Virus record (IMG/VR): IMGVR_UViG_2939127364_000001
Length of the DNA: 64,000 bases
Direction: 5' to 3' (one strand)
DNA from: a virus
Lineage: Duplodnaviria; Heunggongvirae; Uroviricota; Caudoviricetes
The position numbers and the translations under genes were made by a program. Of the stretch, positions 6,443 through 63,912 are shown piece by piece; positions within the stretch are counted from its first letter, which is position 1; every line of letters begins with the position of its first letter. The notes under the pieces are model-generated. The model was not told where the DNA came from. It saw only the letters and a program-made list of their open reading frames with translations, and did no database searches.

Positions 6443-6445
6443 TGT

Positions 6446-6862: not shown

Positions 6863-6863
6863 A

Positions 6864-16500: not shown

Positions 16501-18296
16501 CGAACGCGCATAGGTTCGAGATCTGGTTCTGTAATTGTCCAGACACCGTTCAAAACAGGCGTTTCCGCTGACGACAGGGCTTTTGAAAACGTAACTTTTG
16601 TTATATTTTCGCCAGTTTCAAGAACATCGCGTTCAACGATTTTGCCTTCCTGATTCAGTATTCGAATAAAGCAGCCGCCTTTGGCTAACGACACAGGCGC
16701 ATCGAGTGTGACGCTGTTTTTGGTAAACGCCACAATTCGACCTGAGTTACGTTTGCCTGCGCGATATTTGTTCTGAATCAGAACGGTTTCACCAGGCATC
16801 AGAAATGACGCGTCTAAGCCAGCAGTAAATGTAATTACATCCGACTCCATTCTGGCGGTATATAAAAGCCACAAACCAACTCGGTGAGCCTGCCCTCGGC
16901 TTGTACAGCCAAATGCTACGACTTCTGTTTTACGCTCACCATAACGGCGCATTGCGTCCTGATCTTCGACGTACTCGATGTTTTGCTTATAACCGTCCTC
17001 CTTGTTGTTGTAGGTTACGAGCGCAACGGATGGGCGATCTTTACGCGCAGAACCTTTATAGGTAAACAATCCATCTTTGACGTTAGAGTTGGTAAACATC
17101 ATTACCGGATCTGATGGGCTATCCTGCATGATGTTGACCATCCCACCAGCCCAAAACACCATGCCGCGGAATGCTCCGGCAATATCCTGAATTAGCCGGT
17201 ATGCGTCCTGTCGACTGGTGATCTGCGTATTGATTGCAAAGCGTTTCTCTTTGCCACCAAAGCCATCATCGACCTCTTCGTCACAATATCGACCAATCTG
17301 GTACAACTGGCCAAGGTCAATCATAGATTCCGACACATACTGACCAAGGCCATATCGAGCATTGGTCAGCAAATCAAAGAGAATCCACGCGGGGTTCGAA
17401 GAAGACAACAGCTTAAAAGTGCCATCCCATACCCCAGCGTAAGTGTTACTGGACTCGTTATAGTTTGAAGGTACTCGAATTTTTAGGCCACGCACCAGAT
17501 AAGAGCGAGATGGCATGGTGCTGCCGAATTGCTCAGAGTTTACCTTCAATCCAACCAAAACAGAGTTTGGATAGTTCATCGGTGTATCGACAATTTCCCC
17601 GATTGAATCCACCCATGTATCGTTATAGAGATACTGGCTACTGTTATCATCGGTAATACGGACCACACGAACCTTGTATGCGCGTCCAGGCTTAGGCAGC
17701 TTCAGCTCGTAGCTACGGTAATAAACGCCGGTCTTCTTTGCTGTTAGCTTAATGCCAACGCTTTTTTCACCTTCCGCGACCACATCTACAAATGTTGAGT
17801 CGCCATTTGCTATCTGGAACTTGTACTCAACAGTCGTACCGTTCGTGTCACCAGTTTTTTTATCTATGCTTCGCAAAGAAGGAAACTTCATGATGACACG
17901 AACCCGATCAGCTTCATCGTTATCGATTGAAACCGTTACATAATGTGTTTTTTTTAACTGGATATTGACGGATTTAGGCGTTTCAACGAAATCAAAGCCA
18001 GACATTGGAGTCTGGTCTTGTGAACCGTCGCGAAAATCCCATGTGATTCCGCTGAAGTTGGAGGAACCGTCTTCATTTACAATCGGCAGATCGTCGATAA
18101 AAATAGATCTTGCGCCATTTACTAAGCCGCCAATTACCCCTTCCCCAAGAAGATCGAGGATAGCGGCCATTGCACGAGAATTTACGGTATCGTCGGCTTC
18201 AACCGGTGTACGGCTGGAGCTTTTGCTGCTTTTTTTACCACCCGCACCGGCAATAAACAGCGGTAGCTTTTTCTTCTTGAACTGTTCCATGTTCAA
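13563..18296 (-). CDS. Tail tip / host-specificity protein (lambda J-like) with a long central coiled-coil repeat region
   Basis: 1577 aa; N-terminus resembles J-family proteins; position immediately after the I-like gene; central ~33-aa repeats. Confidence 0.85.
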   Translation of the reverse strand: MNMEQFKKKKLPLFIAGAGGKKSSKSSSRTPVEADDTVNSRAMAAILDLLGEGVIGGLVNGARSIFIDDLPIVNEDGSSNFSGITWDFRDGSQDQTPMSGFDFVETPKSVNIQLKKTHYVTVSIDNDEADRVRVIMKFPSLRSIDKKTGDTNGTTVEYKFQIANGDSTFVDVVAEGEKSVGIKLTAKKTGVYYRSYELKLPKPGRAYKVRVVRITDDNSSQYLYNDTWVDSIGEIVDTPMNYPNSVLVGLKVNSEQFGSTMPSRSYLVRGLKIRVPSNYNESSNTYAGVWDGTFKLLSSSNPAWILFDLLTNARYGLGQYVSESMIDLGQLYQIGRYCDEEVDDGFGGKEKRFAINTQITSRQDAYRLIQDIAGAFRGMVFWAGGMVNIMQDSPSDPVMMFTNSNVKDGLFTYKGSARKDRPSVALVTYNNKEDGYKQNIEYVEDQDAMRRYGERKTEVVAFGCTSRGQAHRVGLWLLYTARMESDVITFTAGLDASFLMPGETVLIQNKYRAGKRNSGRIVAFTKNSVTLDAPVSLAKGGCFIRILNQEGKIVERDVLETGENITKVTFSKALSSAETPVLNGVWTITEPDLEPMRVRIVNIAQGETPGSFDITAVENNPSKYEAIDNGATLIPQNTTVLDPTYSKPSNLQITEGTYLSSPGNLSVKLTATWEGKSPEYWISWRRSDENNISNWQSARVTEEQYEIVNVAENGRYDFQLYAVSFNGKKTEIISTVYQVLGTMTPPDAPTSLTAVGDYRNVILNWVNPDSVDLDHINVYASQTNNLDTAKLIAESASTTFTHAGLGDSETWYYWVRASNKRGMLSPPNSNLGTEATTRDVLSFLTGKITSSELGQALLEDINSKASQEAVDELNEHINQSVESLEGAVNDVKEDIAELDKQFSDNLADFEIKFNERSDALENAQTELKGEVSATIDKVNEAFEKIDATDAAIVEIENTVSEHDKALANTVEAIKAARDEAAALIAKESEARVEGDAANAKQLEVLQSTVEESSAAVEEMKKTVAEVDRASAELTTNIEALAKTNIDLALRQDEDQHKQMVNNAKIATTQKTFADDMSAMATKVEEIRVEIGEDIKASILEESTARADGDEALAKRVTQLQSKFEGDISAAISTEQEARTSADEALTTQITQLESKVSNDIVAAIKEEQEARATEDSALASQITQLQAKVDDDISAAIRSEQEARASGDSALAKQINQLQSKVDGDISAAITQEQEARASADQALSREINSLRAQTGTDIAAAVAVETKARTDADSALSTQITSLTAKANDLEASLARETTARADGDTALTKEVSNLKAQTAKDISAAVAVETQARTDADSALSSQITKLTSQYKEDIKAAVATETKTRTDQDAALATQITNLESQTAANISAAVTTETTARTQADNALSGRIDTLKAEVDGNTATIQQQATAIADTNKKVSTAWTLKMETSTSGGQKYVAGIALGIDTTGLSQFLVQADRFGLVNSVNGKITTPFVIENSIAYMNGAYIKDGTITNAKVGDLQSTNFVSGRSGWRFGKNGTLEINGNSGGNGRLVINGQRIDVYDDNNVLRVRIGRL
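14000..15010. repeat. Tandem ~99-bp (33-aa) degenerate repeats inside the J-like gene
   Basis: About 10 repeats of ALxxQITxLxxKVxxDIxAAIxxEQEARxxxD in protein; visible DNA periodicity. Confidence 0.6.
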
Positions 18297-50433: not shown

Positions 50434-51003
50434 TTAGTTGTTCAGATAAACATTTGGAACACGGACGTAGAAGTTCCTGTCGCCGGTAAGTTCCAGAGTA
50501 ATGTTAATGTCATTACCATTGTCTAGTGTAGCCGTTGCTCTATAGAACTTATCCGTCACCTTGTCCTCTATTGTCACCTTCATACATTTTGGTGCAGTCG
50601 AACCGTTATTCTCTTTCAGAATGGTCGTTACGAGAGGACAAGCCGCTTCTTCAAGAGCAACCTCTTTCTGGTGTGGGATACCGATGAAGATGTTACCAGC
50701 AAGCAACGCGACGATTACGATAAAAGGAAGTCGACTGCCTTTTGTAACGGTGGCACGTTTCCAGAGATAGACCGGAAGGAGAAATACTCCCCACAGGATG
50801 GCCGGTGGTTCATACCCTGCATCAGACAATGCCATTCTGTCAGCCACCAGAAAGCCGAGTCCAGCGACTCCACCTATCACTATTGCATAATTCAAATACT
50901 CATCTGGCGGCGCTCCAAAGAAGAGAGGCAGTAAAGCTAGAAGCCACGCATAAGCATTATTCAGAGGTTTTGTTTGTTGGTTCTGGGTTTCCATCACATC
51001 CAT
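50434..51003 (-). CDS. Integral membrane protein (hypothetical)
   Basis: 189 aa; 3-4 hydrophobic segments in the N-terminal half and a soluble C-terminal domain. Confidence 0.5.
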   Translation of the reverse strand: MDVMETQNQQTKPLNNAYAWLLALLPLFFGAPPDEYLNYAIVIGGVAGLGFLVADRMALSDAGYEPPAILWGVFLLPVYLWKRATVTKGSRLPFIVIVALLAGNIFIGIPHQKEVALEEAACPLVTTILKENNGSTAPKCMKVTIEDKVTDKFYRATATLDNGNDINITLELTGDRNFYVRVPNVYLNN

Positions 51004-51155
51004 TCCATCACATAAAAATCGCGTTTATATATTATCAATTTTCTCACTTGTATAACCTAAATACGCATCCGTTTATCAATCCACCTTCCACAAACATCAG
51101 CTTTAGCTATGAAAAATAACAATCTCAAAGTGAAAACCATTATCATAGGAAACGA

Positions 51156-51341
51156 TTAGATGAGATGGTCTAATTCATCATCTATCATTGCTTTAACACT
51201 TGAATCATTAACCCCGTATTGATTTATGAACCGTTTCAGCTCCGGTGAAAACTGAAGGTAGATATCGTGAGCGTTTTTCACTGTAGGTTCAACGCCACGC
51301 ATTTCAAGCGCCTTTAGTAGATATGAGTCTTCTTTAAGCAT
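51156..51341 (-). CDS. Small hypothetical protein
   Basis: 61-aa ORF in the same operon. Confidence 0.35.
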   Translation of the reverse strand: MLKEDSYLLKALEMRGVEPTVKNAHDIYLQFSPELKRFINQYGVNDSSVKAMIDDELDHLI

Positions 51342-51377
51342 AAATTCTCCGTTGTCTAGTATGAAGCGATTGCCGGA

Positions 51378-51677
51378 TTACCATTGCCAGCACTCTAGCC
51401 CTTCAACGACCGGTGCACCACAATCAAAATGTACAGAGTCAAAGCCTACATCAAGTACTTTCTGAATGTTAGCAATCGCGCCTTCGGATATACCATATCG
51501 ACGCAAGTCCTCTTTCCAGACATCATCCTGTAACCCGGCGTGGACAATACAACCGCCATCAATTTGTGAAACCCAATCCAGCTCATTGCTTGCGATCATG
51601 AATCGGCGAGCATCTTCCTCTGATGTATGAGATGAACTGATCAATGCCACCTGGTAGGCTTGGGTAATGTTCAACAT
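51378..51677 (-). CDS. Hypothetical protein (first gene of right-end operon)
   Basis: 99 aa; two copies of motif A upstream. Confidence 0.5.
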   Translation of the reverse strand: MLNITQAYQVALISSSHTSEEDARRFMIASNELDWVSQIDGGCIVHAGLQDDVWKEDLRRYGISEGAIANIQKVLDVGFDSVHFDCGAPVVEGLECWQW

Positions 51678-51690
51678 TTCAACAACTCCG

Positions 51691-51756
51691 AAACAATTTG
51701 TTTTCTTATGTGGCTTATTATCTCAATCAACAAAAGGTAGAAAACAAATTGTTTTA
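51691..51756. promoter_or_regulatory. Two copies of motif A at the right prophage end
   Basis: aaacaatttgttttct (51691..51706) and agaaaacaaattgtttta (51739..51756). Confidence 0.4.
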
Positions 51757-51794
51757 GGGTTTGTTAAAGTCAGAAGGGGTTGTGTCTATATGAA

Positions 51795-51822
51795 AATGCC
51801 CAGCGTGTTGCCGGGCATTGCG
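51795..51822 (-). terminator. metG rho-independent terminator
   Basis: aatgcccggc-aacac-gctgggcatt followed by TTTCAT in - sense, directly after the metG stop. Confidence 0.6.
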
Positions 51823-51838
51823 AACAGAGGTTGTTTAA

Positions 51839-53872
51839 TTACTTAACCTGGTGGCCTGGTTTAGCACCAGCATCCGGGCTTAACAGGAAGATATCTTTCC
51901 CGCCGGGGCCAGCAGCCATCACCATGCCTTCGGAGATACCGAAGCGCATTTTACGCGGAGCCAGGTTAGCCACCATAATGGTGTGACGACCAATCAGTGC
52001 CTGTGGGTCTGGATAAGCAGAACGGATGCCTGAGAAGACATTACGCTTTTCACCACCGAGATCCAGTGTCAGACGCAGCAGTTTGTCAGAACCTTCGACA
52101 AACTCCGCGTTTTCAATCAGCGCCACACGCAGGTCAACTTTGGCGAAGTCGTCAAAGGTGATGGTTTCCTGAATCGGGTCGTCAGCCAGTGGGCCAGTTA
52201 CCGGTGCAGCTGTGGCTTTCACTTCTTCTTTGGATGCTTCCACCAGTGCTTCCACCTGTTTCATATCGATACGGTTATACAATGCCTTGAACGGATTCAC
52301 TTTATGGCCCAGCAGCGGTTGCTGGATACCATCCCAGGTCAGTTCTGTATTCAGGAATGCTTCTGCACGTTCAGTCAGTTTCGGCAGTACCGGTTTCAAG
52401 TACGTCATCAGCACGCGGAACAGGTTAATGCCCATAGAGCAAATCGCCTGCAGATCGGCATCGCGTCCTTCCTGCTTCGCCACCACCCACGGAGCCTGTT
52501 CATCGACATATCGGTTAGCCAGGTCAGCCAATGCCATGATTTCACGGATAGCTTTACCAAATTCGCGGCTTTCCCATGCTTCGCCAATCACTTCAGCGGC
52601 ATCAGTAAAGGTTTTGTACAGTTGCGGGTCAGCCAGTTCGCTTGCCAGCACGCCGTCAAAACGCTTGTTGATAAAGCCTGCATTACGGGAGGCCAGGTTA
52701 ACCACTTTGTTCACGATATCGGCATTCACGCGCTGAACGAAATCCTCCAGGTTGAGATCGATATCATCAATGCGCGAAGAGAGTTTCGCAGTGTAGTAGT
52801 AACGCAGGCTGTCGGCGTCAAAATGATTCAGCCAGGTGCTGGCTTTAATAAAGGTGCCGCGAGACTTGGACATCTTCGCGCCGTTCACCGTCACATAGCC
52901 GTGAACAAACAGGTTGGTCGGCTTGCGGAAGTTGCTGCCTTCCAGCATGGCAGGCCAGAACAGGCTGTGGAAGTAAACAATATCTTTACCGATGAAGTGG
53001 TACAGCTCGGCTGTGGAGTCTTTCTTCCAGTATTCATCGAAGCTGGTGGTATCGCCGCGCTTGTCGCACAGATTCTTGAAGGAACCCATGTAGCCAATCG
53101 GCGCGTCCAGCCAGACGTAGAAATATTTGCCCGGCGCGTTCGGAATTTCAAAACCGAAGTAAGGCGCATCGCGGGAGATATCCCACTGTTGCAGGCCGGA
53201 TTCAAACCACTCCTGCATTTTGTTCGCCACCTGCTCCTGCAACGCACCGCTGCGGGTCCATGCCTGCAACATTTCGCTGAAAGAGGGCAGATCAAAGAAG
53301 AAGTGTTCGGAATCACGCATTACCGGGGTAGCGCCAGAAACCACCGATTTCGGCTCGATCAATTCAGTCGGGCTATATGTTGCGCCGCAGACTTCACAGT
53401 TATCGCCGTATTGATCTGGCGCTTTACATTTCGGGCAGGTGCCTTTCACAAAACGATCCGGCAGGAACATGCCTTTTTCCGGGTCGTACAACTGAGAGAT
53501 AGTGCGGTTTTTAATAAAACCGTTCTCTTTCAGGCGAGTATAGATAAGCTCAGACAGCTGGCGGTTCTCTTCGCTGTGCGTCGAGTGATAGTTGTCATAG
53601 CTGATGTTAAAGCCTGCGAAATCAGTCTGGTGTTCCTGACTCATTTCGCCAATCATCTGCTCCGGTGTGATACCAAGCTGCTGTGCTTTCAGCATGATCG
53701 GCGTACCGTGGGCATCGTCGGCACAGATGAAATTAACCTCGTGGCCGCGCATTCGCTGGTAACGAACCCAGACATCAGCCTGGATGTGCTCCAGCATATG
53801 GCCGAGGTGGATTGAGCCGTTAGCGTACGGCAGCGCGCACGTCACCAGAATTTTCTTCGCGACTTGGGTCAT
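51839..53872 (-). CDS. metG: Methionyl-tRNA synthetase
   Basis: 677 aa from [26 protein letters not shown] (HIGH-type motif), KMSKS present, C-terminal ...KPGHQVK; start set at ATG 53872 rather than the upstream-extended track ORF. Confidence 0.95.
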
Positions 53873-54029
53873 AGTAGGCATTACTTCTTTGTAGTGAAAA
53901 GGGGCTTGATAGTAACAAAATGGCCTTATGTCTGCCATGTGATAACAGCATTTCTCATAAATGATTAAATGTCGTAGCTGGAGTACACTACAAGGCGACA
54001 ATTGCGCAAATTAAAATAAAGGAGACGGG

Positions 54030-55130
54030 ATGAGCGAGTCCAAATCGCCGGATGCCCTGAGAGCAATGGTAGCCGGTACGCTGGCTAATTTTCAGCACCC
54101 AACCCTGAAACACAACCTGACTACGCTTAAAGCGTTACACCATGTTGCGTTGATGGATGACACACTGCATGTCGAACTAATCATGCCTTTCGTGTGGAAT
54201 AAGCCTTTTGAAGACCTGAAAGAGCAATGTAGTGGTGATCTGCTCCGTATCACTGGCGCAAAGGCTATTGACTGGAAGCTGTCGTACAACATTGCCACGC
54301 TTAAGCGCGTCAAAAACCAACCAGGCATTAATGGCGTTAAGAACATTATCGCCGTCAGCTCAGGCAAGGGCGGCGTGGGTAAATCCTCCACGGCGGTAAA
54401 CCTGGCACTGGCGTTGGCTGCTGAAGGTGCGAAAGTTGGTATTTTGGATGCCGATATCTATGGTCCATCAATTCCAACCATGCTGGGCGCGGAAAACCAA
54501 CGTCCAACCTCACCTGACGGTACTCACATGGCACCTATCATGTCTCATGGCCTGGCAACCAACTCTATTGGTTATCTGGTCACCGACGACAATGCAATGG
54601 TGTGGCGTGGACCGATGGCCAGCAAGGCGCTGATGCAGATGTTGCAGGAAACTCTATGGCCTGATCTGGACTATCTCGTTCTCGATATGCCGCCGGGCAC
54701 TGGTGATATTCAGTTGACGCTGGCGCAGAACATTCCTGTAACTGGTGCGGTTGTGGTAACTACGCCGCAAGACATCGCGCTGATCGATGCGAAGAAAGGC
54801 ATTGTGATGTTCGAAAAAGTCGAAGTGCCGGTACTGGGTATCGTCGAAAACATGAGTGTGCATATTTGCAGTAACTGCGGTCATCACGAGCCAATTTTTG
54901 GCACCGGTGGCGCACAGAAACTGGCCGAGAAATACAACACGCAGTTGTTAGGCCAAATGCCACTTCATATCTCTCTTCGTGAAGATCTGGATAACGGAAC
55001 ACCAACCGTTATTAGTCGTCCAGATAGCGAATTTACGGCTATTTATCGTGACCTCGCAGATCGCGTTGCCGCCCAAATGTATTGGCAAGGTGAAGTAATA
55101 CCTGGCGAAATCGCATTCCGCGCAGTGTGA
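54030..55130 (+). CDS. apbC: Fe-S cluster carrier ATPase ApbC/Mrp
   Basis: 366 aa; P-loop SGKGGVGKSS; CxxC motif ICSNCGHH; divergent from metG as in E. coli. Confidence 0.9.
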   Translation: MSESKSPDALRAMVAGTLANFQHPTLKHNLTTLKALHHVALMDDTLHVELIMPFVWNKPFEDLKEQCSGDLLRITGAKAIDWKLSYNIATLKRVKNQPGINGVKNIIAVSSGKGGVGKSSTAVNLALALAAEGAKVGILDADIYGPSIPTMLGAENQRPTSPDGTHMAPIMSHGLATNSIGYLVTDDNAMVWRGPMASKALMQMLQETLWPDLDYLVLDMPPGTGDIQLTLAQNIPVTGAVVVTTPQDIALIDAKKGIVMFEKVEVPVLGIVENMSVHICSNCGHHEPIFGTGGAQKLAEKYNTQLLGQMPLHISLREDLDNGTPTVISRPDSEFTAIYRDLADRVAAQMYWQGEVIPGEIAFRAV

Positions 55131-55166
55131 TAAAAGGCGGTGCATTGCACCGCCTAATCAGTTCTC

Positions 55167-55556
55167 CTACATCACGGGACAATCATCAAACTCGCCACTT
55201 CTTGCGTCGTTGATAATGTGAGTGATCACACCAAACACGGCATTGCTGCCCGTGCATCCATCGTCATCCTTTGGCAATGCTTCCTTCTTACCGGTTCTTA
55301 AATCCTCCAGATGCTGACGTGGGTACTTCCGGTATCTTTTTACGCGATATTCCCCATCCAGAGCGCATACAAGCAGAGAACCATCAACCGGGGTAAGTGA
55401 GGAATCGACCACCAGCAATGCACCCTGTAATATTCCCTCACGATGATGACTATCAGCTGCCCTCATGAAGTAGGTCGCTGAAGGATGTCTAATTATCTGC
55501 TGATCAAGAGAAATACGGCTCTCAGCATAATCCGCCGCAGGAGAAGGGAAGCCCAT
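55167..55556 (-). CDS. UmuD'-like S24 peptidase domain protein (lacks the N-terminal arm and cleavage site)
   Basis: 129 aa beginning MGFPSPAADY...HPSATYF...LLVVDS...DGEYRVKRY, aligning with UmuD from its Gly25 onward; convergent with apbC. Confidence 0.7.
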   Translation of the reverse strand: MGFPSPAADYAESRISLDQQIIRHPSATYFMRAADSHHREGILQGALLVVDSSLTPVDGSLLVCALDGEYRVKRYRKYPRQHLEDLRTGKKEALPKDDDGCTGSNAVFGVITHIINDARSGEFDDCPVM

Positions 55557-55574
55557 AGCGTTTTCACCTCAGAG

Positions 55575-55594
55575 TACTGTTTATCCATACAGTA
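55575..55594. promoter_or_regulatory. LexA (SOS) box
   Basis: tactgtttatccatacagta = CTGT-N8-ACAG, 20 nt upstream of the UmuD'-like start. Confidence 0.65.
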
Positions 55595-55654
55595 TACATT
55601 AAAGATGCTTGAAGTGTGCAATAGCGCGATGCTTTGCGCTCGTCTGGTGGCGCG

Positions 55655-55906
55655 TTATTTTTTGGCTATATCTTCTTTCTGATATACCGGATCGTTTCCT
55701 TTTGGCAGCAGGAGGCTTAACTGCCGGTAGTGCCGTAGCCGTTCCATGAAATAGGTGCGCAGGTTCTCAGGTTGCTCACGGGCTACCTGTTCCGCTATGA
55801 CGGGTATGTTCAATCGCTCTTTGTAGGCAACCCCCCTGGCAGCCAGGTCAACGTTAACTTTATTCCTTTCTTCCTGGCTTTTGGCTGCTATGTTCCAGTT
55901 GCTCAT
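55655..55906 (-). CDS. Small hypothetical protein
   Basis: 83-aa ORF upstream of the UmuD'-like gene, separated from it by ~100 bp containing the LexA box. Confidence 0.4.
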
Positions 55907-56258
55907 GTTTAAGGCTCACATTTCCAGATGGTATTCTGAACACCCGTACCAGGCGCAAGATGAGGGTTAGCGTTCGCGCTATGCAGATATACAGCTTTAG
56001 ACTTTCCGTATTGCTGACAGGCTTTATCTGCGTTTTTTGGCAGGCTATCCAAGCCAATACCAGCCATCGAACTGGATGCTAACCTTTTCACCGTCATTGT
56101 ATTGCACCATCGCACACCCAGACATAGCTAAAATCGCACCGACAATACCGCTTTTCCAAAAAGCTCTAATTAGGTCATTCGTTACCTAATGTCCGAACTG
56201 CTAAAGCATCCAAGTTGCTGTAGAATCACATCCAATTACTTAAACCTGAAATAAGTGG

Positions 56259-57821
56259 ATGAAAATGACAAGTATTCAACAACGTGCAGAGCTTCATCGC
56301 CAGATCTGGCAAATTGCTAACGATGTCAGGGGTTCAGTCGATGGATGGGATTTTAAGCAGTACGTTTTGGGCGCGCTTTTTTACCGTTTTATCAGCGAAA
56401 ATTTTTCCAGTTATATTGAAGCCGGTGATGACAGTATCTGTTATGCGAAACTGGATGACAGCGTAATTACTGATGACATTAAAGACGATGCCATCAAAAC
56501 TAAAGGCTACTTCATCTACCCCAGTCAGCTTTTCTGCAACGTAGCTGCGAAAGCAAATACTAATGACAGACTGAATGCAGATTTAAACAGCATCTTCGTT
56601 GCTATCGAAAGTTCTGCTTACGGTTATCCTTCAGAAGCTGACATCAAAGGTTTGTTTGCTGATTTCGATACCACCAGTAACCGCCTGGGTAACACCGTTA
56701 AAGATAAAAATGCCCGCTTGGCTGCGGTTCTGAAAGGGGTTGAAGGGCTAAAACTTGGTGACTTCCATGAACATCAGATTGACCTGTTCGGTGACGCCTA
56801 TGAGTTCCTGATTTCTAACTATGCGGCGAATGCCGGTAAGTCCGGCGGCGAGTTCTTTACACCGCAGCACGTCTCTAAGCTGATTGCACAACTGGCTATG
56901 CACGGGCAGACCCACGTTAACAAAATCTACGACCCGGCAGCAGGCTCCGGTTCGCTGTTGTTGCAGGCGAAAAAACAGTTTGATGACCATATCATCGAAG
57001 AAGGTTTTTTTGGTCAGGAAATCAACCATACGACCTATAACCTGGCGCGTATGAACATGTTTTTGCACAACATCAACTACGACAAGTTTGATATCAAGCT
57101 GGGTAATACACTGACTGAGCCGCACTTCAGAGATGAAAAACCGTTTGATGCCATCGTTTCTAACCCGCCGTATTCGGTGAAATGGATTGGCAGCGATGAC
57201 CCGACGCTGATTAACGATGAACGTTTTGCCCCGGCTGGCGTTCTGGCCCCCAAATCCAAAGCTGACTTTGCGTTTGTATTACATGCGCTGAACTATCTTT
57301 CGGCCAAAGGTCGCGCTGCGATTGTCTGCTTCCCAGGCATTTTTTACCGTGGCGGCGCGGAGCAGAAAATCCGTCAGTATCTGGTCGACAATAACTATGT
57401 CGAAACCGTGATTTCACTGGCACCGAATCTGTTCTTTGGCACCACTATTGCCGTCAATATTCTGGTGCTGTCTAAACATAAAACGGATACCAAAGTTCAG
57501 TTTATTGATGCCAGCGAACTGTTCAAAAAAGAGACTAACAACAACATTCTGACCGATGCTCATATCGAACAGATTATGCAGGTATTTGCCAGCAAGAAAG
57601 ATGTTGCTCATCTGGCGAAATCTGTTGCGTTTGAGACTGTTGTCGCGAATGACTATAACCTGTCGGTGAGCAGCTATGTGGAAGCGAAAGATACTCGCGA
57701 AATTATCGATATCGCTGAGCTGAATGCTGAGCTGAAAACCACGGTCAGCAAAATCGACCAGTTGCGTAAAGATATTGATGCGATTGTTGCTGAGATTGAA
57801 GGTAGCGAGGTACAGGCATGA
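56259..57821 (+). CDS. hsdM: Type I restriction-modification system methyltransferase subunit
   Basis: 520 aa; N6-adenine MTase motif [12 protein letters not shown]; SAM-binding region; N-terminus [17 protein letters not shown]. Confidence 0.9.
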
Positions 57822-59137
57822 GCGAGCTGAGTTATCTGGAAAAACTGCTGGATGGGGCTGAGGTTGAGTGGGTAGCATTAAATAAATTAGCAACTTTTTT
57901 AAAAGGGAAGTCTTTACCTAAAGAAAAAATAACTCCAGATGGCAATAGATATTGTATTCATTACGGTGAGCTTTTCACTCATTATGGTCCCATAATTGAC
58001 AAAGTATGCTCAAAAACAAACCAAGCAATCAATGAGTCAATTCTATCTGAAAAAAATGATGTTCTAATGCCAACGTCAGACGTTACACCAAGAGGTTTGG
58101 CTACAGCTAGTTGCATTCAAGAAAGTGGCGTTATTTTAGGCGGCGATATTTTGATTATTAGATGCTCTGGTGTTGATGGTAGATATCTAAGTAATTTCAT
58201 AATAAATAACAAAAAAAAGATATTGCAAATGGTTAAAGGTTCTACTGTTTATCATTTGTATGCTAAAGATATAGGTAAATTACTTATCCCCATCCCTTGC
58301 CCCAACAACCCGGAAAAGTCGCTGGCTATCCAGTCTGAAATCGTCAGGATTCTGGATAAATTTACTGCACTTACCGCTGAGCTTACCGCTGAGCTTAGCA
58401 TGCGTAAAAAACAATACAACTACTATCGCGACCAGTTGTTGAGTTTTGATGATGAGCAGGAAAAACCTATTTATCTGGAAAAATTGCTGGATGGGGTTGA
58501 GGTTGAGTGGTTGCCATTGGGGAAACTAGGTGAATTAGTTCGTGGAAATGGATTGCCTAAGTCTGATTTTACCGAATCTGGGGTTCCTGCCATACACTAT
58601 GGTCAGATATATACTTTTTACGGATTATCTACTGAAACAACAAAGTCATTTGTTTCCCATGAAACGGCGAAGAAGCTTAAAAAGGTTAACTCTGGTGATG
58701 TTGTTATTACTAACACAAGCGAAAATTTTACTGATGTTGGTAAGGCGCTTGTTTATCTAGGTAAAGAGCAAGCTGTTACTGGTGGCCATGCAACTATTTT
58801 TAAGCCAAATAGCACTATTATTGGGAAATACTTTGCCTATTTCACGCAAACGGATTCTTTTGCAAATGGGAAAAGGAAATACTCCAAGGGAACTAAAGTA
58901 ATTGATGTGTCTGCATCGGATATGGCGAAAATTATTATCCCTATCCCCTGTCCGGAAAATCCGGAAAAATCCCTTGCCATTCAGTCTGAAATCGTTCGGA
59001 TTCTGGATAAATTCGACACCCTGACTAACTCCATCACCGAAGGTCTCCCGCGTGAAATCGAGTTGCGCCAGAAACAATACGAATACTACCGTGATTTACT
59101 GTTCAGTTTCCCAAAACCTGAAACTGTCAGTAATTAA
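57818..59137 (+). CDS. hsdS: Type I restriction-modification specificity subunit (type IC-like architecture)
   Basis: 439 aa; two AT-rich target-recognition regions separated by GC-richer conserved repeats ([23 protein letters not shown]... and [23 protein letters not shown]...); central TAELTAEL. Confidence 0.9.
58370..58396 (+). repeat. Tandem 12-bp repeat (cttaccgctgag x2) in hsdS central conserved region
   Basis: Encodes TAEL-TAEL; copy number of this repeat distinguishes EcoR124I from EcoR124II specificity. Confidence 0.7.
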
Positions 59138-59258
59138 TTGACCATTGCTACCGACCGGGCCACCTTAACACCCGGTCAGTATATAGACTATTTTTTTACG
59201 CGCCGGAAGCCCCCTTAACTCCCTTCCGGCCCTTGCCAGACGGCACAAAGGATGCGCT

Positions 59259-62200
59259 ATGACTCATCAAACACATACCATTGCTGAATCCAATAACTTT
59301 ATCGTTCTTGATAAGTACATCAAAGCTGAGCCAACAGGCGACAGCTACCAGAGCGAATCGGACCTGGAACGTGAACTGATTCAAGACCTGCGGAATCAGG
59401 GCTATGAATTTATTTCGGTAAAATCACAGTCAGCGATGCTGACCAACGTTCGGGAACAGCTTCAGAGCCTCAATGGTGTGGTGTTTAATGACAGCGAGTG
59501 GCGGCGTTTCACGGAGCAGTATCTGGACAACCCGAGCGATGGCATTCTGGATAAGACCCGTAAAATCCATATCGACTATATTTGCGACTTTATTTTTGAT
59601 GACGAGCGACTTGAGAACATCTATTTGATAGATAAAAAGAATCTCATGCGCAATAAGGTGCAGATTATCCAGCAGTTTGAACAGACGGGTTCTCATGCTA
59701 ACCGTTATGACGTCACGATCCTGGTTAATGGCTTACCACTGGTACAAATCGAACTGAAAAAGCGCGGCGTGGCGATTCGTGAGGCTTTCAACCAGATACA
59801 TCGTTACAGTAAAGAGAGTTTTAACAGCGAAAACTCCCTGTTTAAGTATCTGCAACTGTTTGTCATTTCTAACGGCACCGATACCCGTTATTTTGCCAAC
59901 ACAACAAAGCGCGATAAAAACAGTTTTGACTTCACCATGAACTGGGCGAAATCAGACAACACGCTGATTAAAGACCTCAAAGATTTTACCGCTACCTTTT
60001 TCCAGAAACATACTCTGCTTAATGTTCTGGTGAACTACAGCGTTTTTGACAGCAGTCAGACGCTACTGGTGATGCGACCGTACCAGATTGCTGCCACCGA
60101 GCGCATTCTGTGGAAAATTAAGAGCTCCTTTACAGCGAAGAACTGGTCAAAACCGGAAAGCGGAGGGTATATCTGGCACACTACCGGTTCTGGTAAAACC
60201 CTCACCAGCTTTAAAGCCGCGCGTCTGGCAACAGAGCTGGACTTTATTGATAAAGTCTTCTTCGTGGTCGACAGGAAAGACCTCGATTACCAGACCATGA
60301 AGGAATATCAGCGTTTTTCGCCAGACAGCGTCAACGGCTCGGAAAATACCGCAGGCCTTAAACGAAATCTGGATAAGGACGATAACAAAATTATCGTCAC
60401 CACTATTCAGAAACTTAATAACCTGATGAAAGCAGAAAGCGACCTGCCTGTATACAATCAGCAAGTGGTGTTTATATTTGATGAATGTCACCGCAGCCAG
60501 TTTGGAGAAGCGCAGAAAAACCTGAAGAAGAAATTCAAACGCTATTATCAGTTTGGTTTTACCGGCACACCTATTTTCCCGGAAAACGCCTTAGGCTCAG
60601 AAACGACCGCCAGCGTATTTGGTCGTGAATTGCATTCGTATGTAATTACCGATGCGATTCGTGATGAAAAAGTGCTCAAATTCAAGGTGGACTACAACGA
60701 TGTGCGGCCACAGTTTAAATCTTTAGAGACAGAAACCGACGAGAAAAAACTGAGTGCGGCTGAAAATCAGCAGGCATTTCTTCATCCCATGCGTATACAG
60801 GAAATTACGCAATATATTCTGAATAACTTCCGCCAGAAGACCCACCGTACTTTCCCAGGTTCCAAAGGCTTTAATGCCATGCTGGCAGTGAGTAGCGTGG
60901 ATGCCGCGAAAGCCTATTACGCGACGTTTAAACGGTTACAAGAGGAAGCAGCTAATAAATCGGCTACCTATAAACCGCTGCGTGTTGCAACAATCTTCTC
61001 CTTTGCCGCCAATGAAGAACAAAATGCCATTGGTGAAATTTCCGATGAAACTTTTGATACCAGCGCAATGGACAGCAGTGCTAAAGAGTTTCTTGACGCT
61101 GCAATTCGTGAGTATAACAGCTATTTTAAAACTAACTTCAGCACCGACAGTAACGGTTTTCAGAACTACTATCGTGATTTAGCCCAACGGGTTAAAAATC
61201 AGGATATCGATCTGTTAATTGTCGTTGGGATGTTTTTAACCGGCTTCGACGCTCCAACATTGAACACGCTATTCGTCGATAAAAACTTGCGTTTTCACGG
61301 CCTGATGCAGGCATTCTCCCGTACCAACCGCATTTATGACGCTACTAAAACCTTCGGTAACATCGTCACTTTTCGGGATCTGGAACGCTCAACCATTGAT
61401 GCCATAACGCTGTTTGGTGATAAAAATACTAAAAATGTGGTGTTAGAAAAGAGTTATGCTGAGTATATGGAAGGCTTTACAGATGCTGCCACTGGTGAAG
61501 CTAAACGCGGCTTTATGGCAGTAGTTTCAGAACTGGAACAACGGTTCCCTGACCCTGCCAGTATTGAAAGTGAAAAAGAGAAGAAAGACTTCGTAAAACT
61601 GTTTGGTGAATACCTGCGTGCCGAGAACATCCTGCAAAACTATGATGAATTTGCCACGCTGAAAGCCCTGCAACAAATCGATCTTAGCGATCCTGTTGCG
61701 GTAGAAAAATTCAAAGCAGAACATTATGTGGATGATGAAAAGTTCGCTGAATTGCAAACAATTCGTCTCCCTGCTGAACGCAAGATTCAGGATTATCGTT
61801 CTGCCTATAACGATATTCGCGACTGGCAGCGCCGTGAGAAAGAAGCTGAGAAAAAAGAGAAATCAACCACTGACTGGGATGACGTAGTTTTTGAGGTCGA
61901 TTTGCTGAAGTCTCAGGAAATAAACCTGGATTATATCCTTGGACTGATTTTCGAACACAACAGACAAAATAAAGGCAAGGGCGAAATGATCGAAGAGGTC
62001 AAACGCTTAATTCGTTCAAGCCTGGGGAACCGGGCGAAAGAGGGCCTGGTGGTCGATTTTATTCAGCAAACGAACCTGGATGATTTACCAGACAAAGCCA
62101 GTATCATTGAGGCATTCTTTACGTTTGCTCAACGCGAACAGCAACGTGAAGCAGAAGCATTGATAAAAGAAGAAAATCTCAATGAAGAGGCGGCGAAACG

Positions 62201-62375
62201 CTATATTCGCACGTCTTTAAAACGCGAATACGCCACCGAAAATGGCACAGAATTAAACGAGACATTACCAAAACTTAGTCCGTTAAACCCGCAATATAAA
62301 ACGAAAAAACAGACCGTTTTCCAGAAAATCGTCACGTTTATTGAAAAGTTCAAAGGAGTAGGTGGGCAGATATAG
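59259..62375 (+). CDS. hsdR: Type I restriction enzyme endonuclease/translocase subunit
   Basis: 1038 aa; helicase motifs TGSGKT and DECHRSQ; own transcription unit 120 bp after hsdS; M-S-R gene order as in type IC systems. Confidence 0.9.
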
Positions 62376-62433
62376 TGTATTAATCTGAACCAGATCTGGC
62401 AGACATCTGTGCAAATTGCAGATAGCTGTCAGA

Positions 62434-62910
62434 TCAAACCATCGTAGGGATGTTTGTATCCACTTTGAACTCAGGTACACCAACGAACTCTTTAACCTTC
62501 ATCTGGTAGCCGGTTCTGTCAGTTTTGATGACTTCCTGTTTGCCCTCTATAAACTGCTCACGCCACTCGTCGCGACGGGAAGCTGGCATGATCAGCAAAA
62601 CGTTAGTCATATCCGTGACCTTCCTCCAGTACTCGGCCCAAATATTCTGTTTCACCCATTCCAGATCGACTTTATCCAGCCAAGCTCGATTCAAACGTGA
62701 GCGTTCTTCATCTGGTCGATGGTTCAGTTGCAGCAGGCGATTAATCATGTTGTGGCGTTCGTCGCCATAAACGAAGTCGTGAACCTGATACATGAAGGCG
62801 ATCTCTTTCTCGCACTCGGCTACGATTTCGTGGATGACGTTCATTTCCTGACGATAATCGATAGCAGTGTTTGAGTTGGTATCGTCGATGATGGAAAGAG
62901 CTGTATTCAT
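62434..62910 (-). CDS. Hypothetical protein
   Basis: 158-aa ORF convergent with hsdR; no recognised motif. Confidence 0.45.
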   Translation of the reverse strand: MNTALSIIDDTNSNTAIDYRQEMNVIHEIVAECEKEIAFMYQVHDFVYGDERHNMINRLLQLNHRPDEERSRLNRAWLDKVDLEWVKQNIWAEYWRKVTDMTNVLLIMPASRRDEWREQFIEGKQEVIKTDRTGYQMKVKEFVGVPEFKVDTNIPTMV

Positions 62911-63013
62911 AATTGCACCATTAAGAAAAGATTTGTTTAATAGTGCAATTATTTCAAAAATGAAAAGGTGCTAAATAGAAATTAACAGGCAATCCTTTAA
63001 ATAAAGGTATTTG

Positions 63014-63912
63014 CTAATCATACTTTGAGGTATTTATAACCAGGATTTTGTTTGTATAAATCTTCTTAATATCCCATGTGACATTACCGGAATACCATTG
63101 ACCGTTATATACTTGGTTTCCAGTTGCACCGGTCATAGTTACATAGACAGGTCTGTCGTAATCGGTTCGTCTATAGTTATAAACCCCAACCATAGCAGGC
63201 ATTACCGCACACGGATACCCCACATCTATGGTAAATTGAGGGTCCAAAATAGTGATAAGTTTCGCATCAAGGGGCATCATCTCACCGTGATACACCATTG
63301 CGCCTGCGCTGTTATACATGGCAATGCCATAGCCAGAATGTGGTAACACCATATCAGAAAAAGCATAAACTGTTATTGTTCCGGGGCTACCATTTACCTG
63401 ATGCAATCTGAGAGCATTGTATCCGTTACTATGTTCATGAATAAACATCATGTTCGCCTTATTACTGCTTTTTATGAAGAAAAAGCATGATTTGTTTGAT
63501 GGGATTGATGTTTTAAAAACAGAACCTTTAGATGCAGACATTGTCCCTTTATTAATCAGATTTTGCGGAGTAAATTCTGGACTCATCCACAAACTTCCAT
63601 CTGATTGAGTAATTGACATCCCGAACATAATTATCCCCAATATGTGTATATGTAAGAACCAAGCCCCGTATATAAATTTGACCAACTAACCGTATTTCCA
63701 TTAATAGTAACTTTTGGAACAGGTAAATTGATGTAGTTGTCGTTGTTAAGAGGCATCAATGACCACACGGCATGAAGTGATTTACCCGGTGGCGGATTAG
63801 AGTACGTCTTAGAGCCTGATGACGCCGTAAATCGATCAAGAAAAAAAATAGGTGTAAGGAAGCCAGTAACGTTAATTCCTTTATTGTTGTAAATCCCTGT
63901 ACCGTATGCCAT
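63014..63912 (-). pseudogene. Possible frameshifted gene (two overlapping ORFs in different frames), AT-rich
   Basis: ORFs 63631..63912 and 63014..63685 overlap by 55 nt on the same strand; low GC. Confidence 0.3.

What the first reader, a model, noticed from the sequence alone, without database searches (positions are those of the whole stretch)
56259..62375. Chromosomal EcoR124-like type IC restriction-modification locus with a two-copy 12-bp specificity repeat in hsdS
Gene order hsdM-hsdS-hsdR, a 1038-aa HsdR with its own transcription unit, and an hsdS central region encoding TAEL-TAEL from a tandem cttaccgctgag repeat match the plasmid-borne EcoR124 family, where repeat copy number (two versus three) changes the spacer length of the recognition sequence. 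Here it sits in a chromosomal island next to apbC; expansion or contraction of the repeat would switch specificity.
Basis: partly seen in the sequence, partly recalled or inferred. Interest (0 to 1): 0.5.

Follow-up and report, generated by a model that had tools for sequence, protein, structure and literature searches.

The report
EcoR124-type restriction system on a phage-plasmid
This is an intact, ordinary member of the well-studied EcoR124 (type IC) restriction-modification family. It sits on a plasmid-like phage rather than the chromosome, and its DNA-recognition gene was rebuilt by swapping in a piece from a related system on a P1-like phage.

Summary
The sequence features are real. hsdM (56259-57821), hsdS (57818-59137) and hsdR (59259-62375) are intact. 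An exact 2-copy CTTACCGCTGAG repeat (58370-58393) encodes TAEL-TAEL in the central helix of HsdS. HsdM and HsdR are about 99% identical to the EcoR124 proteins, so type IC membership holds.

The "chromosomal island" reading is wrong. The window is E. coli plasmid CP033097.1 (113.6 kb), an SSU5-like phage-plasmid that carries its own metG and apbC plus terminase, portal and tail genes.

Two TAEL units is the commonest state in the family. Alleles with 1 to 5 units exist: in E. coli complete genomes about 58% have 2 and about 38% have 3, and the two 4- and 5-unit copies found are both IS-broken. Spacer switching is therefore plausible, but nothing shows it is active here.

What actually changed this locus is different. 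A roughly 2-kb patch (58448 to about 60400) is nearly identical to a type IC locus of a P1-like phage-plasmid, inside an otherwise SSU5-type allele. It places a recognition domain normally found in the N-terminal slot into the C-terminal slot, which predicts a new specificity that has not been measured.

This is a new member of a known kind and of modest interest.

The parts
56259..57821 (+). hsdM, the N6-adenine methyltransferase subunit (520 aa)
   Evidence: ORF. It differs at 6 of 519 residues from EcoR124 HsdM, PDB 7bst_D. Pfam families HsdM_N and N6_Mtase hit the product.
57818..59137 (+). hsdS, the specificity subunit (439 aa): two recognition domains (TRDs) joined by two long helices
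   Evidence: ORF. It matches the EcoR124 HsdS, PDB 7bst_A, at E = 7.5e-64, with near-identical conserved regions and different TRDs. The exact protein is AYN92443.1 / WP_122057112.1, named '(plasmid) [Escherichia coli]'. The AlphaFold model has pLDDT 82.4 and its best structural matches are HsdS chains 1yf2_A and 7bst_A.
58370..58393 (+). Two exact tandem copies of CTTACCGCTGAG, encoding TAEL-TAEL (HsdS residues 184-191)
   Evidence: The repeat lies in the middle of predicted helix D1, residues 165-209.
57878..58273 (+). N-terminal recognition domain, called 'A' here (residues 21-152)
   Evidence: It is 100% identical to the N-slot TRD of 33 of the 120 closest HsdS clusters, and 99% identical in one more. 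It is also 100% identical to that of sister phage-plasmids L001, L006, L007, L012 and L015.
58310..58444 (+). Central conserved helix D1 (residues 165-209), which contains the TAEL repeat
   Evidence: DSSP on the model and the alignment to 7bst_A. Between the DKF and RKKQY motifs D1 has 13 residues, against 17 in D2. The intragenic repeat spacings of 651 and 663 nt show the same 12-nt difference.
58445..58525 (+). Long linker (residues 210-236) that duplicates the N-terminal motif [12 protein letters not shown]
   Evidence: A 59-nt direct repeat, 57832-57890 versus 58471-58529, is 83% identical. The model shows helix 218-224 mirroring helix 3-11. The linker is absent from EcoR124 HsdS and present in 20 of the 120 relatives.
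58526..58930 (+). C-terminal recognition domain, called 'X' here (residues 237-371); in most relatives this domain sits in the N-terminal slot
   Evidence: It is 97-99% identical to residues 24-158 (the N slot) of about 40 relative clusters. It occupies the C slot in P0001, which has X in both slots, and at about 90% identity in Klebsiella partial proteins.
58931..59137 (+). Distal conserved region D2 (residues 372-439), carrying an N-slot-type flank [26 protein letters not shown]
   Evidence: A 128-nt direct repeat, 58235-58362 versus 58886-59013, is 73% identical. The model shows helix 382-428. The C-terminus is identical to that of EcoR124 HsdS.
58448..60400 (+). Recombination patch imported from a P1-like phage-plasmid type IC locus: linker, TRD X, D2, the hsdS-hsdR spacer and the first ~1.1 kb of hsdR
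   Evidence: Against SSU5-like plasmid L001, the window has 1 mismatch in 55100-58447 and 0 in 60500-63000, but is divergent or non-homologous in between. Against P1-like contig L021, it has 1 mismatch in 58468-60267. At sites where the two references differ: hsdM 83/83 SSU5-type; D1 30/30 SSU5-type (last such site 58435); 59014-60400 73/74 P1-type; 60401-62375 67/67 SSU5-type. The left crossover lies in the shared TTGTTGAGTTTT at 58436-58447.
59138..59258 (+). hsdS-hsdR spacer (121 bp) with one promoter-like site, TTAACA-18-TATTTT, at 59165-59194
   Evidence: This is a consensus match only, and the number of such sites in the region is no higher than in shuffles. The spacer is too short to hold a prrC gene.
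59259..62375 (+). hsdR, the translocase/endonuclease subunit (1038 aa); a mosaic of a P1-type 5' part and an SSU5-type 3' part
   Evidence: Full-length match to EcoR124 HsdR, PDB 2w00_A, at 2281 bits, with 13 differences in the ~1010 residues shown. Pfam families HSDR_N, ResIII and EcoR124_C hit the product. Mosaic structure.
56160..62375 (+). The hsdMSR cassette as shared with P1-like phages and phage-plasmids; it starts ~100 bp upstream of hsdM and ends at the hsdR stop codon
   Evidence: Homology with P1-like phages vB_EcoM-673R5 and phi456, and with P1-like contigs L019-L023, spans exactly this range. No flanking direct or inverted repeats and no IS element were found.
62434..62910 (-). 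Remnant (158 aa) of a DUF4942 / methyltransferase-like gene, cut at the right edge of the cassette
   Evidence: It matches phrog_6263 over positions 1-150 of a 548-position profile. The homologue in phage Cyrano spans 1686 nt, about 561 aa. The sister plasmid annotates it as a partial gene missing its C-terminus. Homology with cassette-free phages resumes at about 62463.
55167..55906 (-). humD (S24 peptidase, 55167-55556) and hot (DNA polymerase III theta homologue, 55655-55906): a P1-like accessory pair between apbC and hsdM
   Evidence: Pfam Peptidase_S24 and DNA_pol3_theta. The pair is 86-88% identical to humD-hot of phage P1 and phage RCS47.
51839..55130 (.). Phage-plasmid copies of metG (51839-53872, minus strand) and apbC (54030-55130, plus strand)
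   Evidence: Both are annotated on ~110-kb E. coli plasmids and on phages PhiR41_1 and Cyrano. Gene calls on CP033097.1 agree.

Best explanation
The locus is a complete, apparently functional type IC (EcoR124-family) restriction-modification system. It is carried as accessory cargo on an SSU5-like phage-plasmid of E. coli (CP033097.1), not on the chromosome.

By homology, two HsdM plus one HsdS form the methyltransferase, and adding two HsdR gives the ATP-driven restriction enzyme. HsdS reads a bipartite target. Its N-terminal recognition domain (A) reads one half-site. Its C-terminal domain (X) reads the other half-site in inverted orientation. The antiparallel D1/D2 coiled coil sets the gap between them.

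With two TAEL units in D1, the expected geometry is that of EcoR124I: a 7-nt interval between the methylated adenines, typically an N6 gap. Gaining one 12-bp unit would give the EcoR124II geometry, one base pair wider.

The present specificity arose another way. Homologous recombination with a type IC locus of a P1-like phage-plasmid replaced about 2 kb, running from just 3' of the TAEL repeat to about 1.1 kb into hsdR. This installed a 'half-gene' module (N-type leader, TRD X, D2) in the C-terminal slot.

Shown: gene content, family identity, plasmid/phage context, the mosaic structure, and copy-number polymorphism in relatives. Inferred: enzyme activity, target sequence, gap length, direction of transfer, and any ongoing repeat switching.
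For: Family identity: HsdM differs from EcoR124 HsdM at 6/519 residues, HsdR matches full length, and the HsdS conserved regions are near-identical.

Context: the exact HsdS and HsdR are on plasmid CP033097.1. Window 30-55 kb is 84-87% covered at 95-97% identity by SSU5-like phages CMS-2020a and PhiR41_1. Terminase, portal, tape-measure, tail-fibre and DnaB genes are present. The same metG-apbC-humD-hot-hsdMSR arrangement occurs on at least 40 E. coli plasmid records. Cassette-free relatives carry other cargo at this site.

Mosaic. A second SSU5-like contig (L024) carries a different P1-type patch: 0 mismatches to L019 up to about 60,900. This makes a pure assembly artefact unlikely.

Repeat: the mechanism is described in PMC3874165. 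A natural allelic series has 3, 2 and 1 units in alleles that are otherwise at least 99% identical. 3-unit alleles occur in IMG/VR, in a metagenome and in a sister SSU5-like plasmid. Evenly spaced samples of 1211 E. coli records give about 23:15 for 2 versus 3 units.

Structure: TAEL lies mid-helix in D1, and both halves of the model are built alike.
Against: No expression, methylation or restriction data exist for this plasmid, and no paper mentions the record. The recognition sequence cannot be derived, because neither TRD matches one of known specificity in the resources available; the EcoR124 TRDs differ. The promoter evidence is at chance level. The exact A~X HsdS was located on only one contig, so this particular recombinant rests on one assembly. 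The direction of the exchange is inferred from parsimony: the X~X allele was read on 24 contigs (the 5 shown all have P1-like flanks), against one contig for A~X. The long linker and N-type flanks in the C slot have not been tested biochemically, although 20 of 120 relatives share this build.
Confidence: 0.85

Rival explanations
1. One reading: a chromosomal genomic island inserted next to the housekeeping gene apbC.
For: metG and apbC are normally chromosomal neighbours in E. coli. Nearly every genome has a match to them at 80-95% identity.
Against: The best matches (98-99% over 100% of 51000-57000) are all ~100-160-kb plasmid records. The exact proteins are on plasmid CP033097.1. The 50 kb upstream encodes terminase, portal, tape measure and tail fibres, and aligns with SSU5-like phages that also carry metG and apbC.
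Confidence: 0.02
2. The 12-bp repeat is an active contingency switch: within populations carrying this plasmid it flips between 2 and 3 (or 1) units often enough to matter, toggling the spacer length as in EcoR124I/II.
For: Alleles that are otherwise at least 99% identical carry 3, 2 or 1 units. In E. coli genomes 2 and 3 units are both common. Units are identical within an allele but differ between alleles at synonymous sites: CTTACCGCTGAG, CTTACAGCAGAG x3 and CTGACAGCAGAG x2. That pattern indicates repeated loss and re-duplication. 4 and 5 units occur in IS-disrupted copies. The mechanism is established for EcoR124.
Against: Only two units of 12 bp are present, far from a classical hypermutable tract. 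All 34 relative clusters with TRD A, and all five sister phage-plasmid hsdS genes read, have exactly 2 units. One 3-unit allele has had time to acquire a substitution in its middle unit, giving TAAL. That points to stability rather than rapid flipping. The recent change in this allele was a TRD swap, with the repeat left untouched.
Confidence: 0.15
3. The mosaic hsdS/hsdR is an assembly or polishing chimera between two co-resident ~95-98% identical type IC loci (SSU5-like and P1-like plasmids in one strain), not a real recombinant.
For: The exact A~X HsdS and the mosaic HsdR were each located on a single contig. The two parental alleles are similar enough to confuse assemblers.
Against: The patch contains a 556-bp non-homologous, length-changing segment bounded by clean breakpoints (informative sites run 83/83 and 30/30, then 73/74, then 67/67), and all ORFs are intact. 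An independent SSU5-like contig (L024) has a P1-type hsdS 3' half with a different donor allele and a different right breakpoint. Such exchanges therefore do occur.
Confidence: 0.07
4. The system is intact in sequence but not active as a restriction enzyme: methylase-only, silenced, or impaired by the unusual C-slot build.
For: The long linker and N-type flanks differ from the characterised EcoR124 HsdS. One circularly permuted EcoAI S subunit (cp380) kept methylation but lost restriction (PMC3874165).
Against: All three ORFs are full length and about 99% identical to an enzyme with solved, active structures. The same long-linker build recurs with at least six different C-slot TRDs in E. coli and Klebsiella. 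That recurrence is hard to explain if it were non-functional. The model keeps the canonical HsdS fold.
Confidence: 0.08

Closest known systems
EcoR124I (type IC prototype, plasmid R124; GAA N6 RTCG)
   Same: Gene order hsdM-hsdS-hsdR. HsdM and HsdR are about 99% identical. The D1 and D2 regions are almost identical, with two TAEL units.
   Different: Both recognition domains differ, so the target differs. A 14-residue longer linker and N-type flanks surround the C-slot domain. The carrier is an SSU5-like phage-plasmid rather than plasmid R124.
EcoR124II, EcoDXXI and EcoprrI (type IC with three TAEL units)
   Same: Same family and same repeat. They show what one extra unit does: a gap 1 bp wider and an 8-nt methylation interval (PMC3874165).
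   Different: This allele has two units. No prrC gene lies between hsdS and hsdR, because the spacer is only 121 bp.
Hybrid S subunits made by recombination in conserved regions (StySQ/StySJ; EcoR124-EcoDXXI hybrids)
   Same: A new combination of recognition domains is created by a crossover in the central conserved region, with each domain keeping its own half-site (PMC3874165). Here the crossover lies at 58436-58447, just 3' of the TAEL repeat.
   Different: This is a natural event between loci on two different phage-plasmid families. The second crossover lies in hsdR. The imported domain is one that normally sits in the N slot.
Homodimeric or half-size type IC S subunits (EcoR124I delta-50, EcoDXXI truncations, NgoAV) and circularly permuted EcoAI S subunits
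   Same: They show that type IC half-subunits are interchangeable and that a domain can work in either slot with inverted polarity (PMC3874165). The imported module here has the build of a half-size HsdS. Natural 226-aa versions and an X~X version exist.
   Different: The window's HsdS is a full-length, two-domain, asymmetric subunit (A~X), not a homodimer.
Defence cargo of SSU5-group and P1-group phage-plasmids
   Same: R-M systems and PrrC have been reported on E. coli and Shigella SSU5-group phage-plasmids and on P1-like ones (bioRxiv 10.1101/2025.09.12.675607).
   Different: The passages of that survey read here say that the defence systems of the two groups are mostly not shared, apart from PrrC and type III R-M. 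Here the two groups share, and recombine, the same type IC cassette.

Membership tests
Type IC restriction-modification (EcoR124 family) | HsdM and HsdR closely similar in sequence to the prototype. Families are defined by complementation, antibody cross-reaction and amino-acid sequence (PMC3874165). | tested here: met
   HsdM differs at 6/519 residues from 7bst_D. HsdR matches 2w00_A full length at 2281 bits, with 13 differences in the ~1010 residues shown.
Type IC restriction-modification (EcoR124 family) | Gene order hsdM-hsdS-hsdR, with hsdS overlapping or abutting hsdM | tested here: met
   56259-57821, 57818-59137 and 59259-62375, all on the + strand.
Type IC restriction-modification (EcoR124 family) | S subunit with type IC conserved regions: an N-terminal piece of D2, a central D1 with TAEL repeats, and a C-terminal D2 | tested here: met
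   Alignment to 7bst_A. TAEL x2. Helices 165-209 and 382-428 in the model.
Type IC restriction-modification (EcoR124 family) | Genetic complementation or antibody cross-reactivity with EcoR124 subunits | not testable with these tools
   This needs wet-lab work. About 99% identity of HsdM and HsdR makes it very likely.
Type IC restriction-modification (EcoR124 family) | hsdR transcribed from its own promoter, separately from hsdMS | tested here: inconclusive
   There is a 121-bp spacer with one 9/12 promoter-like site at 59165-59194. The number of such sites in the region equals the shuffle expectation.
Type IC restriction-modification (EcoR124 family) | Bipartite target with a 7- or 8-nt interval between the methylated adenines | not testable with these tools
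   This needs a methylome. An interval of 7 is predicted from the two TAEL units, by analogy with EcoR124I.
EcoR124I/II-type spacer switching by repeat copy number | An in-frame 12-bp tandem repeat encoding TAEL within helix D1 | tested here: met
EcoR124I/II-type spacer switching by repeat copy number | Otherwise identical alleles that differ only in unit number | tested here: inconclusive
   Met in relatives: P0005, P0006/P0019 and P0021 have 3, 2 and 1 units and are at least 99% identical elsewhere. Not seen for this allele: every relative with TRD A has 2 units.
EcoR124I/II-type spacer switching by repeat copy number | A change of unit number changes the gap length that is recognised | not testable with these tools
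   Established for EcoR124I/II and for engineered hybrids (PMC3874165). Not measured for this HsdS.
Phase-variable (simple-sequence-repeat driven) type I systems | A long hypermutable repeat tract, or invertible hsdS shuffling with a recombinase | tested here: not met
   Only 2 units of 12 bp are present. There is no second hsdS copy, no recombinase gene and no long inverted repeats in 55000-63200.
Prr system (EcoprrI with the PrrC anticodon nuclease) | prrC gene embedded in the type IC operon | tested here: not met
   The hsdS-hsdR gap is 121 bp and there is no extra ORF.
Chromosomal genomic island | Flanked by core chromosomal genes on a chromosome | tested here: not met
   The source is a 113,610-bp plasmid record. 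The flanking metG and apbC are the plasmid's own copies. The rest of the window is phage.
SSU5-like phage-plasmid | Phage structural and replication genes, with DNA homology to SSU5-group phages and plasmid-size circular records | tested here: met
   84-87% coverage at 95-97% identity to CMS-2020a and PhiR41_1, and 84% identity to SSU5 over 25% of the query. Terminase, portal, tape measure, tail fibre J and DnaB are present. The closest records are circular plasmids of about 110 kb.

The most novel reading that the evidence does not exclude
Type IC cassettes on the two main E. coli phage-plasmid families (P1-like and SSU5-like) may form one recombining pool of specificity modules. Under this reading, half-gene units (N-type leader, recognition domain, D2) move between elements and between the N and C slots. 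That would generate asymmetric (A~X), symmetric (X~X) and half-size (226-aa) S subunits, and so new restriction specificities, on elements that are themselves phages. The window would then be a recent product of such an exchange, and contig L024 a second, independent one.
Probability: 0.45. Interest if true: 0.45.

Novelty: new member of a known kind. Interest (0 to 1): 0.3.

Why it matters
For annotation, the locus should be read as phage-plasmid cargo, not as a chromosomal island. The neighbouring metG and apbC are plasmid copies that can mislead.

For biology, it is a clean natural example of how type I specificities diversify. The TAEL repeat offers a 1-bp spacer change. The change that actually happened here was a roughly 2-kb exchange with a related cassette on a different phage-plasmid family, and it put an N-slot domain into the C slot.

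If methylomes confirm the predicted half-site logic, these alleles would form a convenient natural series for assigning half-sites to domains. They would also help study how co-resident phage-plasmids reshape each other's defence repertoire.

None of this challenges current understanding of type I enzymes.

Tried and rejected
- **Exact hsdS in the annotated collections.** No plasmid or E. coli complete-genome record covers at least 80% of the gene. The source was found instead by exact protein look-up.
- **Species-representative genomes.** The flank-gap-flank repeat pattern gave 0 hits. The exact flanks are too strain-specific for one genome per species, so the second scan was not used.
- **Flanking repeats or IS elements around the cassette.** None were found, so this is not a transposon-type insertion.
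- **A donor with at least 99% identity to the patch among complete E. coli genomes.** The best full-length hit was 97.6%, and it was non-colinear because X sits in the N slot there. The near-identical donor-type allele was found through the contigs encoding P0001 instead.
- **Predicting the recognition sequence.** The only solved type IC S subunit, EcoR124, has different recognition domains. No curated table linking recognition domains to specificities was available, so no motif is claimed.
- **Literature on the source record.** Nothing was found.
- **Promoter and terminator scan.** It is no better than shuffled sequence, so it is not used as evidence for separate transcription units.
- **PrrC-type locus.** Considered and rejected, because there is no room for prrC.
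- **Shufflon-type phase variation.** Considered and rejected, because there is no second hsdS and no recombinase.

Full report
**1. The observation**

- hsdM, 56259-57821, 520 aa.
- hsdS, 57818-59137, 439 aa, overlapping hsdM by ATGA.
- hsdR, 59259-62375, 1038 aa.

CTTACCGCTGAG occurs exactly twice in the 64-kb window, in tandem at 58370-58393. Shuffles give a mean of 0.2 matches even when one mismatch is allowed. Tandem Repeats Finder reports 2.3 perfect copies at 58370-58397. The repeat encodes LTAELTAEL, HsdS residues 183-191.

**2. Family identity**

- HsdM differs from the EcoR124 M protein (PDB 7bst_D) at 6 of 519 aligned residues.
- HsdR matches EcoR124 HsdR (2w00_A) end to end at 2281 bits, with 13 differences in the roughly 1010 residues displayed.
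- HsdS matches the EcoR124 S subunit (7bst_A, E = 7.5e-64). The match is essentially identical in the conserved regions: [52 protein letters not shown], and the whole C-terminal [43 protein letters not shown]. It is unrelated or only weakly related in the two recognition domains.
- The 121-bp hsdS-hsdR spacer leaves no room for prrC.

This is therefore a true type IC system whose M and R subunits are near-identical to the prototype, with a different specificity subunit.

**3. Context: a phage-plasmid, not a chromosome**

- The exact HsdS (AYN92443.1 / WP_122057112.1, named '(plasmid) [Escherichia coli]') and the exact HsdR are encoded on CP033097.1, a 113,610-bp record of assembly GCA_003691425.1.
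- Window 51000-57000 is matched over 100% of its length at 98-99% identity by plasmid records of about 100-160 kb.
- The segment 55100-64000 is matched at 94% coverage by about 40 such records.
- In those plasmids metG, apbC, an S24 peptidase (HumD), a polymerase III theta homologue and hsdMSR are annotated side by side.
- Window 30-55 kb is 84-87% covered at 95-97% identity by the SSU5-like phages CMS-2020a and PhiR41_1, and 64% covered by phage Cyrano. PhiR41_1 and Cyrano are annotated with their own methionyl-tRNA synthetase.
- Window ORFs match large terminase, portal, tape-measure, central tail-fibre J, tail-fibre and DnaB-helicase families.

The 'chromosomal island next to apbC' reading fails.

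**4. The cassette is swappable cargo**

The SSU5-like phages Cyrano, CMS-2020a and PhiR41_1 align with the window up to apbC and again from about 62463, but not across hot-hsdMSR. At that position Cyrano carries Ead/Ea22-like genes and a full DUF4942 gene of 1686 nt, about 561 aa. In the window only the first 158 codons of that gene remain, at 62434-62910 on the minus strand.

The stretch 56160-62375 runs from about 100 bp upstream of hsdM to the hsdR stop codon. It recurs at 94-97% identity next to phd/doc in P1-like phages and phage-plasmids. No flanking repeats or IS elements were found.

Type IC hsdS D1 sequence occurs in 1137 of 5426 complete E. coli genomes, about equally on chromosomes and plasmids. 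A 2025 preprint already lists R-M systems and PrrC among the cargo of SSU5-group phage-plasmids.

**5. The repeat and copy number**

The Loenen et al. review (PMC3874165) summarises the established mechanism. The 12-bp TAEL repeat lies in D1, one of the two helices that form the antiparallel coiled coil between the recognition domains. Two units give GAA N6 RTCG (EcoR124I) and three give GAA N7 RTCG (EcoR124II). The change arises by unequal crossing-over.

In the AlphaFold model of this HsdS (pLDDT 82.4), TAEL x2 sits mid-helix in D1 (residues 165-209), opposite D2 (residues 382-428). The best structural matches are HsdS chains 1yf2_A and 7bst_A. Between the DKF and R(K/Q)KQY motifs D1 has 13 residues and D2 has 17, so a third unit would equalise the two helices.

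How variable is the repeat in nature?
- Of the 120 closest HsdS clusters, 101 have exactly two perfect TAEL units.
- Two clusters have three units with a variant middle unit, and one has a single unit. P0005 (3 units), P0006/P0019 (2) and P0021 (1) are at least 99% identical outside the repeat, forming a natural allelic series.
- A flank-gap-flank scan of IMG/VR found 6 loci with three units and 3 with two. A metagenome scan found one of each.
- Two evenly spaced 40-row samples of the 1211 matching E. coli records gave 22-23 with two units and 15 with three. They also contained one record with four units and one with five. Both of those are IS-truncated pseudogenes.
- A sister SSU5-like plasmid, pYLPD4a, has three units.
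- Units are identical within an allele but differ between alleles at synonymous positions: CTTACCGCTGAG, CTTACAGCAGAG x3 and CTGACAGCAGAG x2. This is the signature of repeated loss and re-duplication.

But two units of 12 bp is not a hypermutable tract. All 34 clusters that share this N-terminal domain have two units, as do all five sister phage-plasmid hsdS genes read. Nothing here shows active switching.

**6. What actually happened to this hsdS**

The N-terminal recognition domain (A, residues 21-152) is 100% identical to the N-slot domain of 33 relative clusters, 99% in one more, and 100% identical to that of the sister phage-plasmids. The C-terminal domain (X, residues 237-371) is 97-99% identical to a domain that sits in the N slot (residues 24-158) of about 40 relative clusters.

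X arrives with N-slot-type flanks, which make the second half of the protein a copy of the first half's architecture:
- a leader, [15 protein letters not shown], duplicating residues 5-18;
- a trailing [26 protein letters not shown].

Twenty of the 120 relatives share this long-linker build, with at least six different C-slot domains.

DNA comparison shows how this arose. Relative to the SSU5-like plasmid L001 (E. coli D9 plasmid A), the window has:
- 1 mismatch in 55100-58447;
- 0 mismatches in 60500-63000;
- a non-homologous or about 5% divergent stretch in between.

Relative to L021, the window has 1 mismatch in 58468-60267. L021 is a P1-like phage-plasmid contig whose hsdS (P0001) has X in both slots and lies next to phd/doc.

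At sites where the two references differ, the window matches as follows:

| Region | Sites matching | Type |
|---|---|---|
| hsdM | 83/83 | SSU5-type |
| D1, including the repeat (last site 58435) | 30/30 | SSU5-type |
| 59014-60400 | 73/74 | P1-type |
| 60401-62375 | 67/67 | SSU5-type |

The left crossover lies in the shared TTGTTGAGTTTT at 58436-58447, just 3' of the TAEL repeat. The right crossover lies about 1.1 kb into hsdR. The specificity of this locus was therefore changed by a roughly 2-kb homologous-recombination patch from a P1-like type IC locus, not by the repeat.

A second SSU5-like contig (L024, 111,413 bp) carries a different patch: 0 mismatches to the P1-like allele L019 from D1 to about 60,900. 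Such exchanges therefore recur, and a pure assembly artefact is unlikely as a general explanation. The window's own recombinant, however, was located on only one contig.

**7. Mechanism and prediction**

By homology with EcoR124I, M2S1 methylates and R2M2S1 restricts a bipartite target. Domain A reads the 5' half-site. Domain X, inverted in the C slot, reads the 3' half-site as the reverse complement of what it reads in the N slot (the principle is in PMC3874165). Two TAEL units predict a 7-nt interval between the methylated adenines.

The target itself cannot be derived with the resources available. Activity, gap length and direction of transfer are all inferences.

**8. Comparison and verdict**

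The closest known system is EcoR124I. M, R, D1 and D2 are the same. Both recognition domains differ, there is a longer linker, and the carrier is different. The recombination route is the classical one seen in StySQ/StySJ and the EcoR124-EcoDXXI hybrids. The slot change echoes the engineered half-size and permuted S subunits and natural NgoAV.

This is a new member of a known kind. The more informative feature is the inter-phage-plasmid domain swap. Interest is modest.

Noticed in passing
Relatives P0122, P0123, P0125, P0126, P0135 (not in the window): Natural half-size (226-aa) type IC HsdS proteins exist in E. coli. Each consists of the N-terminal leader, TRD X and the distal conserved region, and equals residues ~214-439 of the window's HsdS with an MSELS start. 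They resemble the engineered truncated S subunits that dimerise and read palindromes.
   Followed up: partly
L019-L023 (P1-like phage-plasmid contigs), hsdS at 6001-7332: HsdS P0001 (443 aa) carries TRD X in both slots (95.6% and 100% identical to the window's copy). It sits next to phd/doc on P1-like elements and was read on 24 contigs. An interrupted palindromic target is predicted.
   Followed up: partly
L017 (NZ_AP027622.1) and L018 (NZ_CP069445.1): Four and five TAEL units were seen in two records, and both are chromosomal hsdS genes truncated by IS5 or IS110-family elements. This would fit the repeat drifting upward once selection is lost, but it rests on two cases.
   Followed up: partly
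L024 (ABGWCA040000008.1, 111,413 bp) 1-3970: A second SSU5-like phage-plasmid has a P1-type hsdS 3' half and hsdR 5' part: 0 mismatches to L019 up to the position equivalent to about 60,900 in the window. Its donor allele and right breakpoint differ from the window's, indicating an independent exchange.
   Followed up: partly
window 51839-55130: The phage-plasmid carries its own full-length metG (methionyl-tRNA synthetase) and apbC/mrp (Fe-S carrier) genes. They are easily mistaken for the chromosomal pair, and the chromosomal copies match at only 80-95% identity.
   Followed up: partly
window 55167-55906 (minus strand): A humD-hot pair (UmuD-like S24 peptidase and polymerase III theta homologue) is 86-88% identical to that of phage P1. 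It sits in an SSU5-like backbone directly upstream of the hsd cassette. Phage Cyrano has an S24 peptidase gene at this position that did not match at megablast level, and no annotated hot.
   Followed up: partly
window 62434-62910 (minus strand): A 158-aa remnant of a DUF4942 / methyltransferase-like gene (1686 nt, about 561 aa, in phage Cyrano). Its last ~9 codons are junction-derived, marking the right scar of the cargo replacement.
   Followed up: partly
window 58370-58393; L005, L008, L013; L021: The TAEL repeat units are identical within each allele but differ between alleles at synonymous sites: CTTACCGCTGAG, CTTACAGCAGAG and CTGACAGCAGAG. This indicates concerted evolution of the units.
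   Followed up: partly
window 62909-62952: A 21-nt inverted repeat (86% complementary, 2-nt loop) lies immediately upstream of the start of the truncated DUF4942 ORF. It could be an operator or a terminator.
   Followed up: no
window 8823-13469 and 13563-18296 (minus strand): Two very large tail-fibre / host-specificity genes (1548 and 1577 aa) match many tail-fibre families in a mosaic pattern. They are likely host-range determinants of this phage-plasmid.
   Followed up: no
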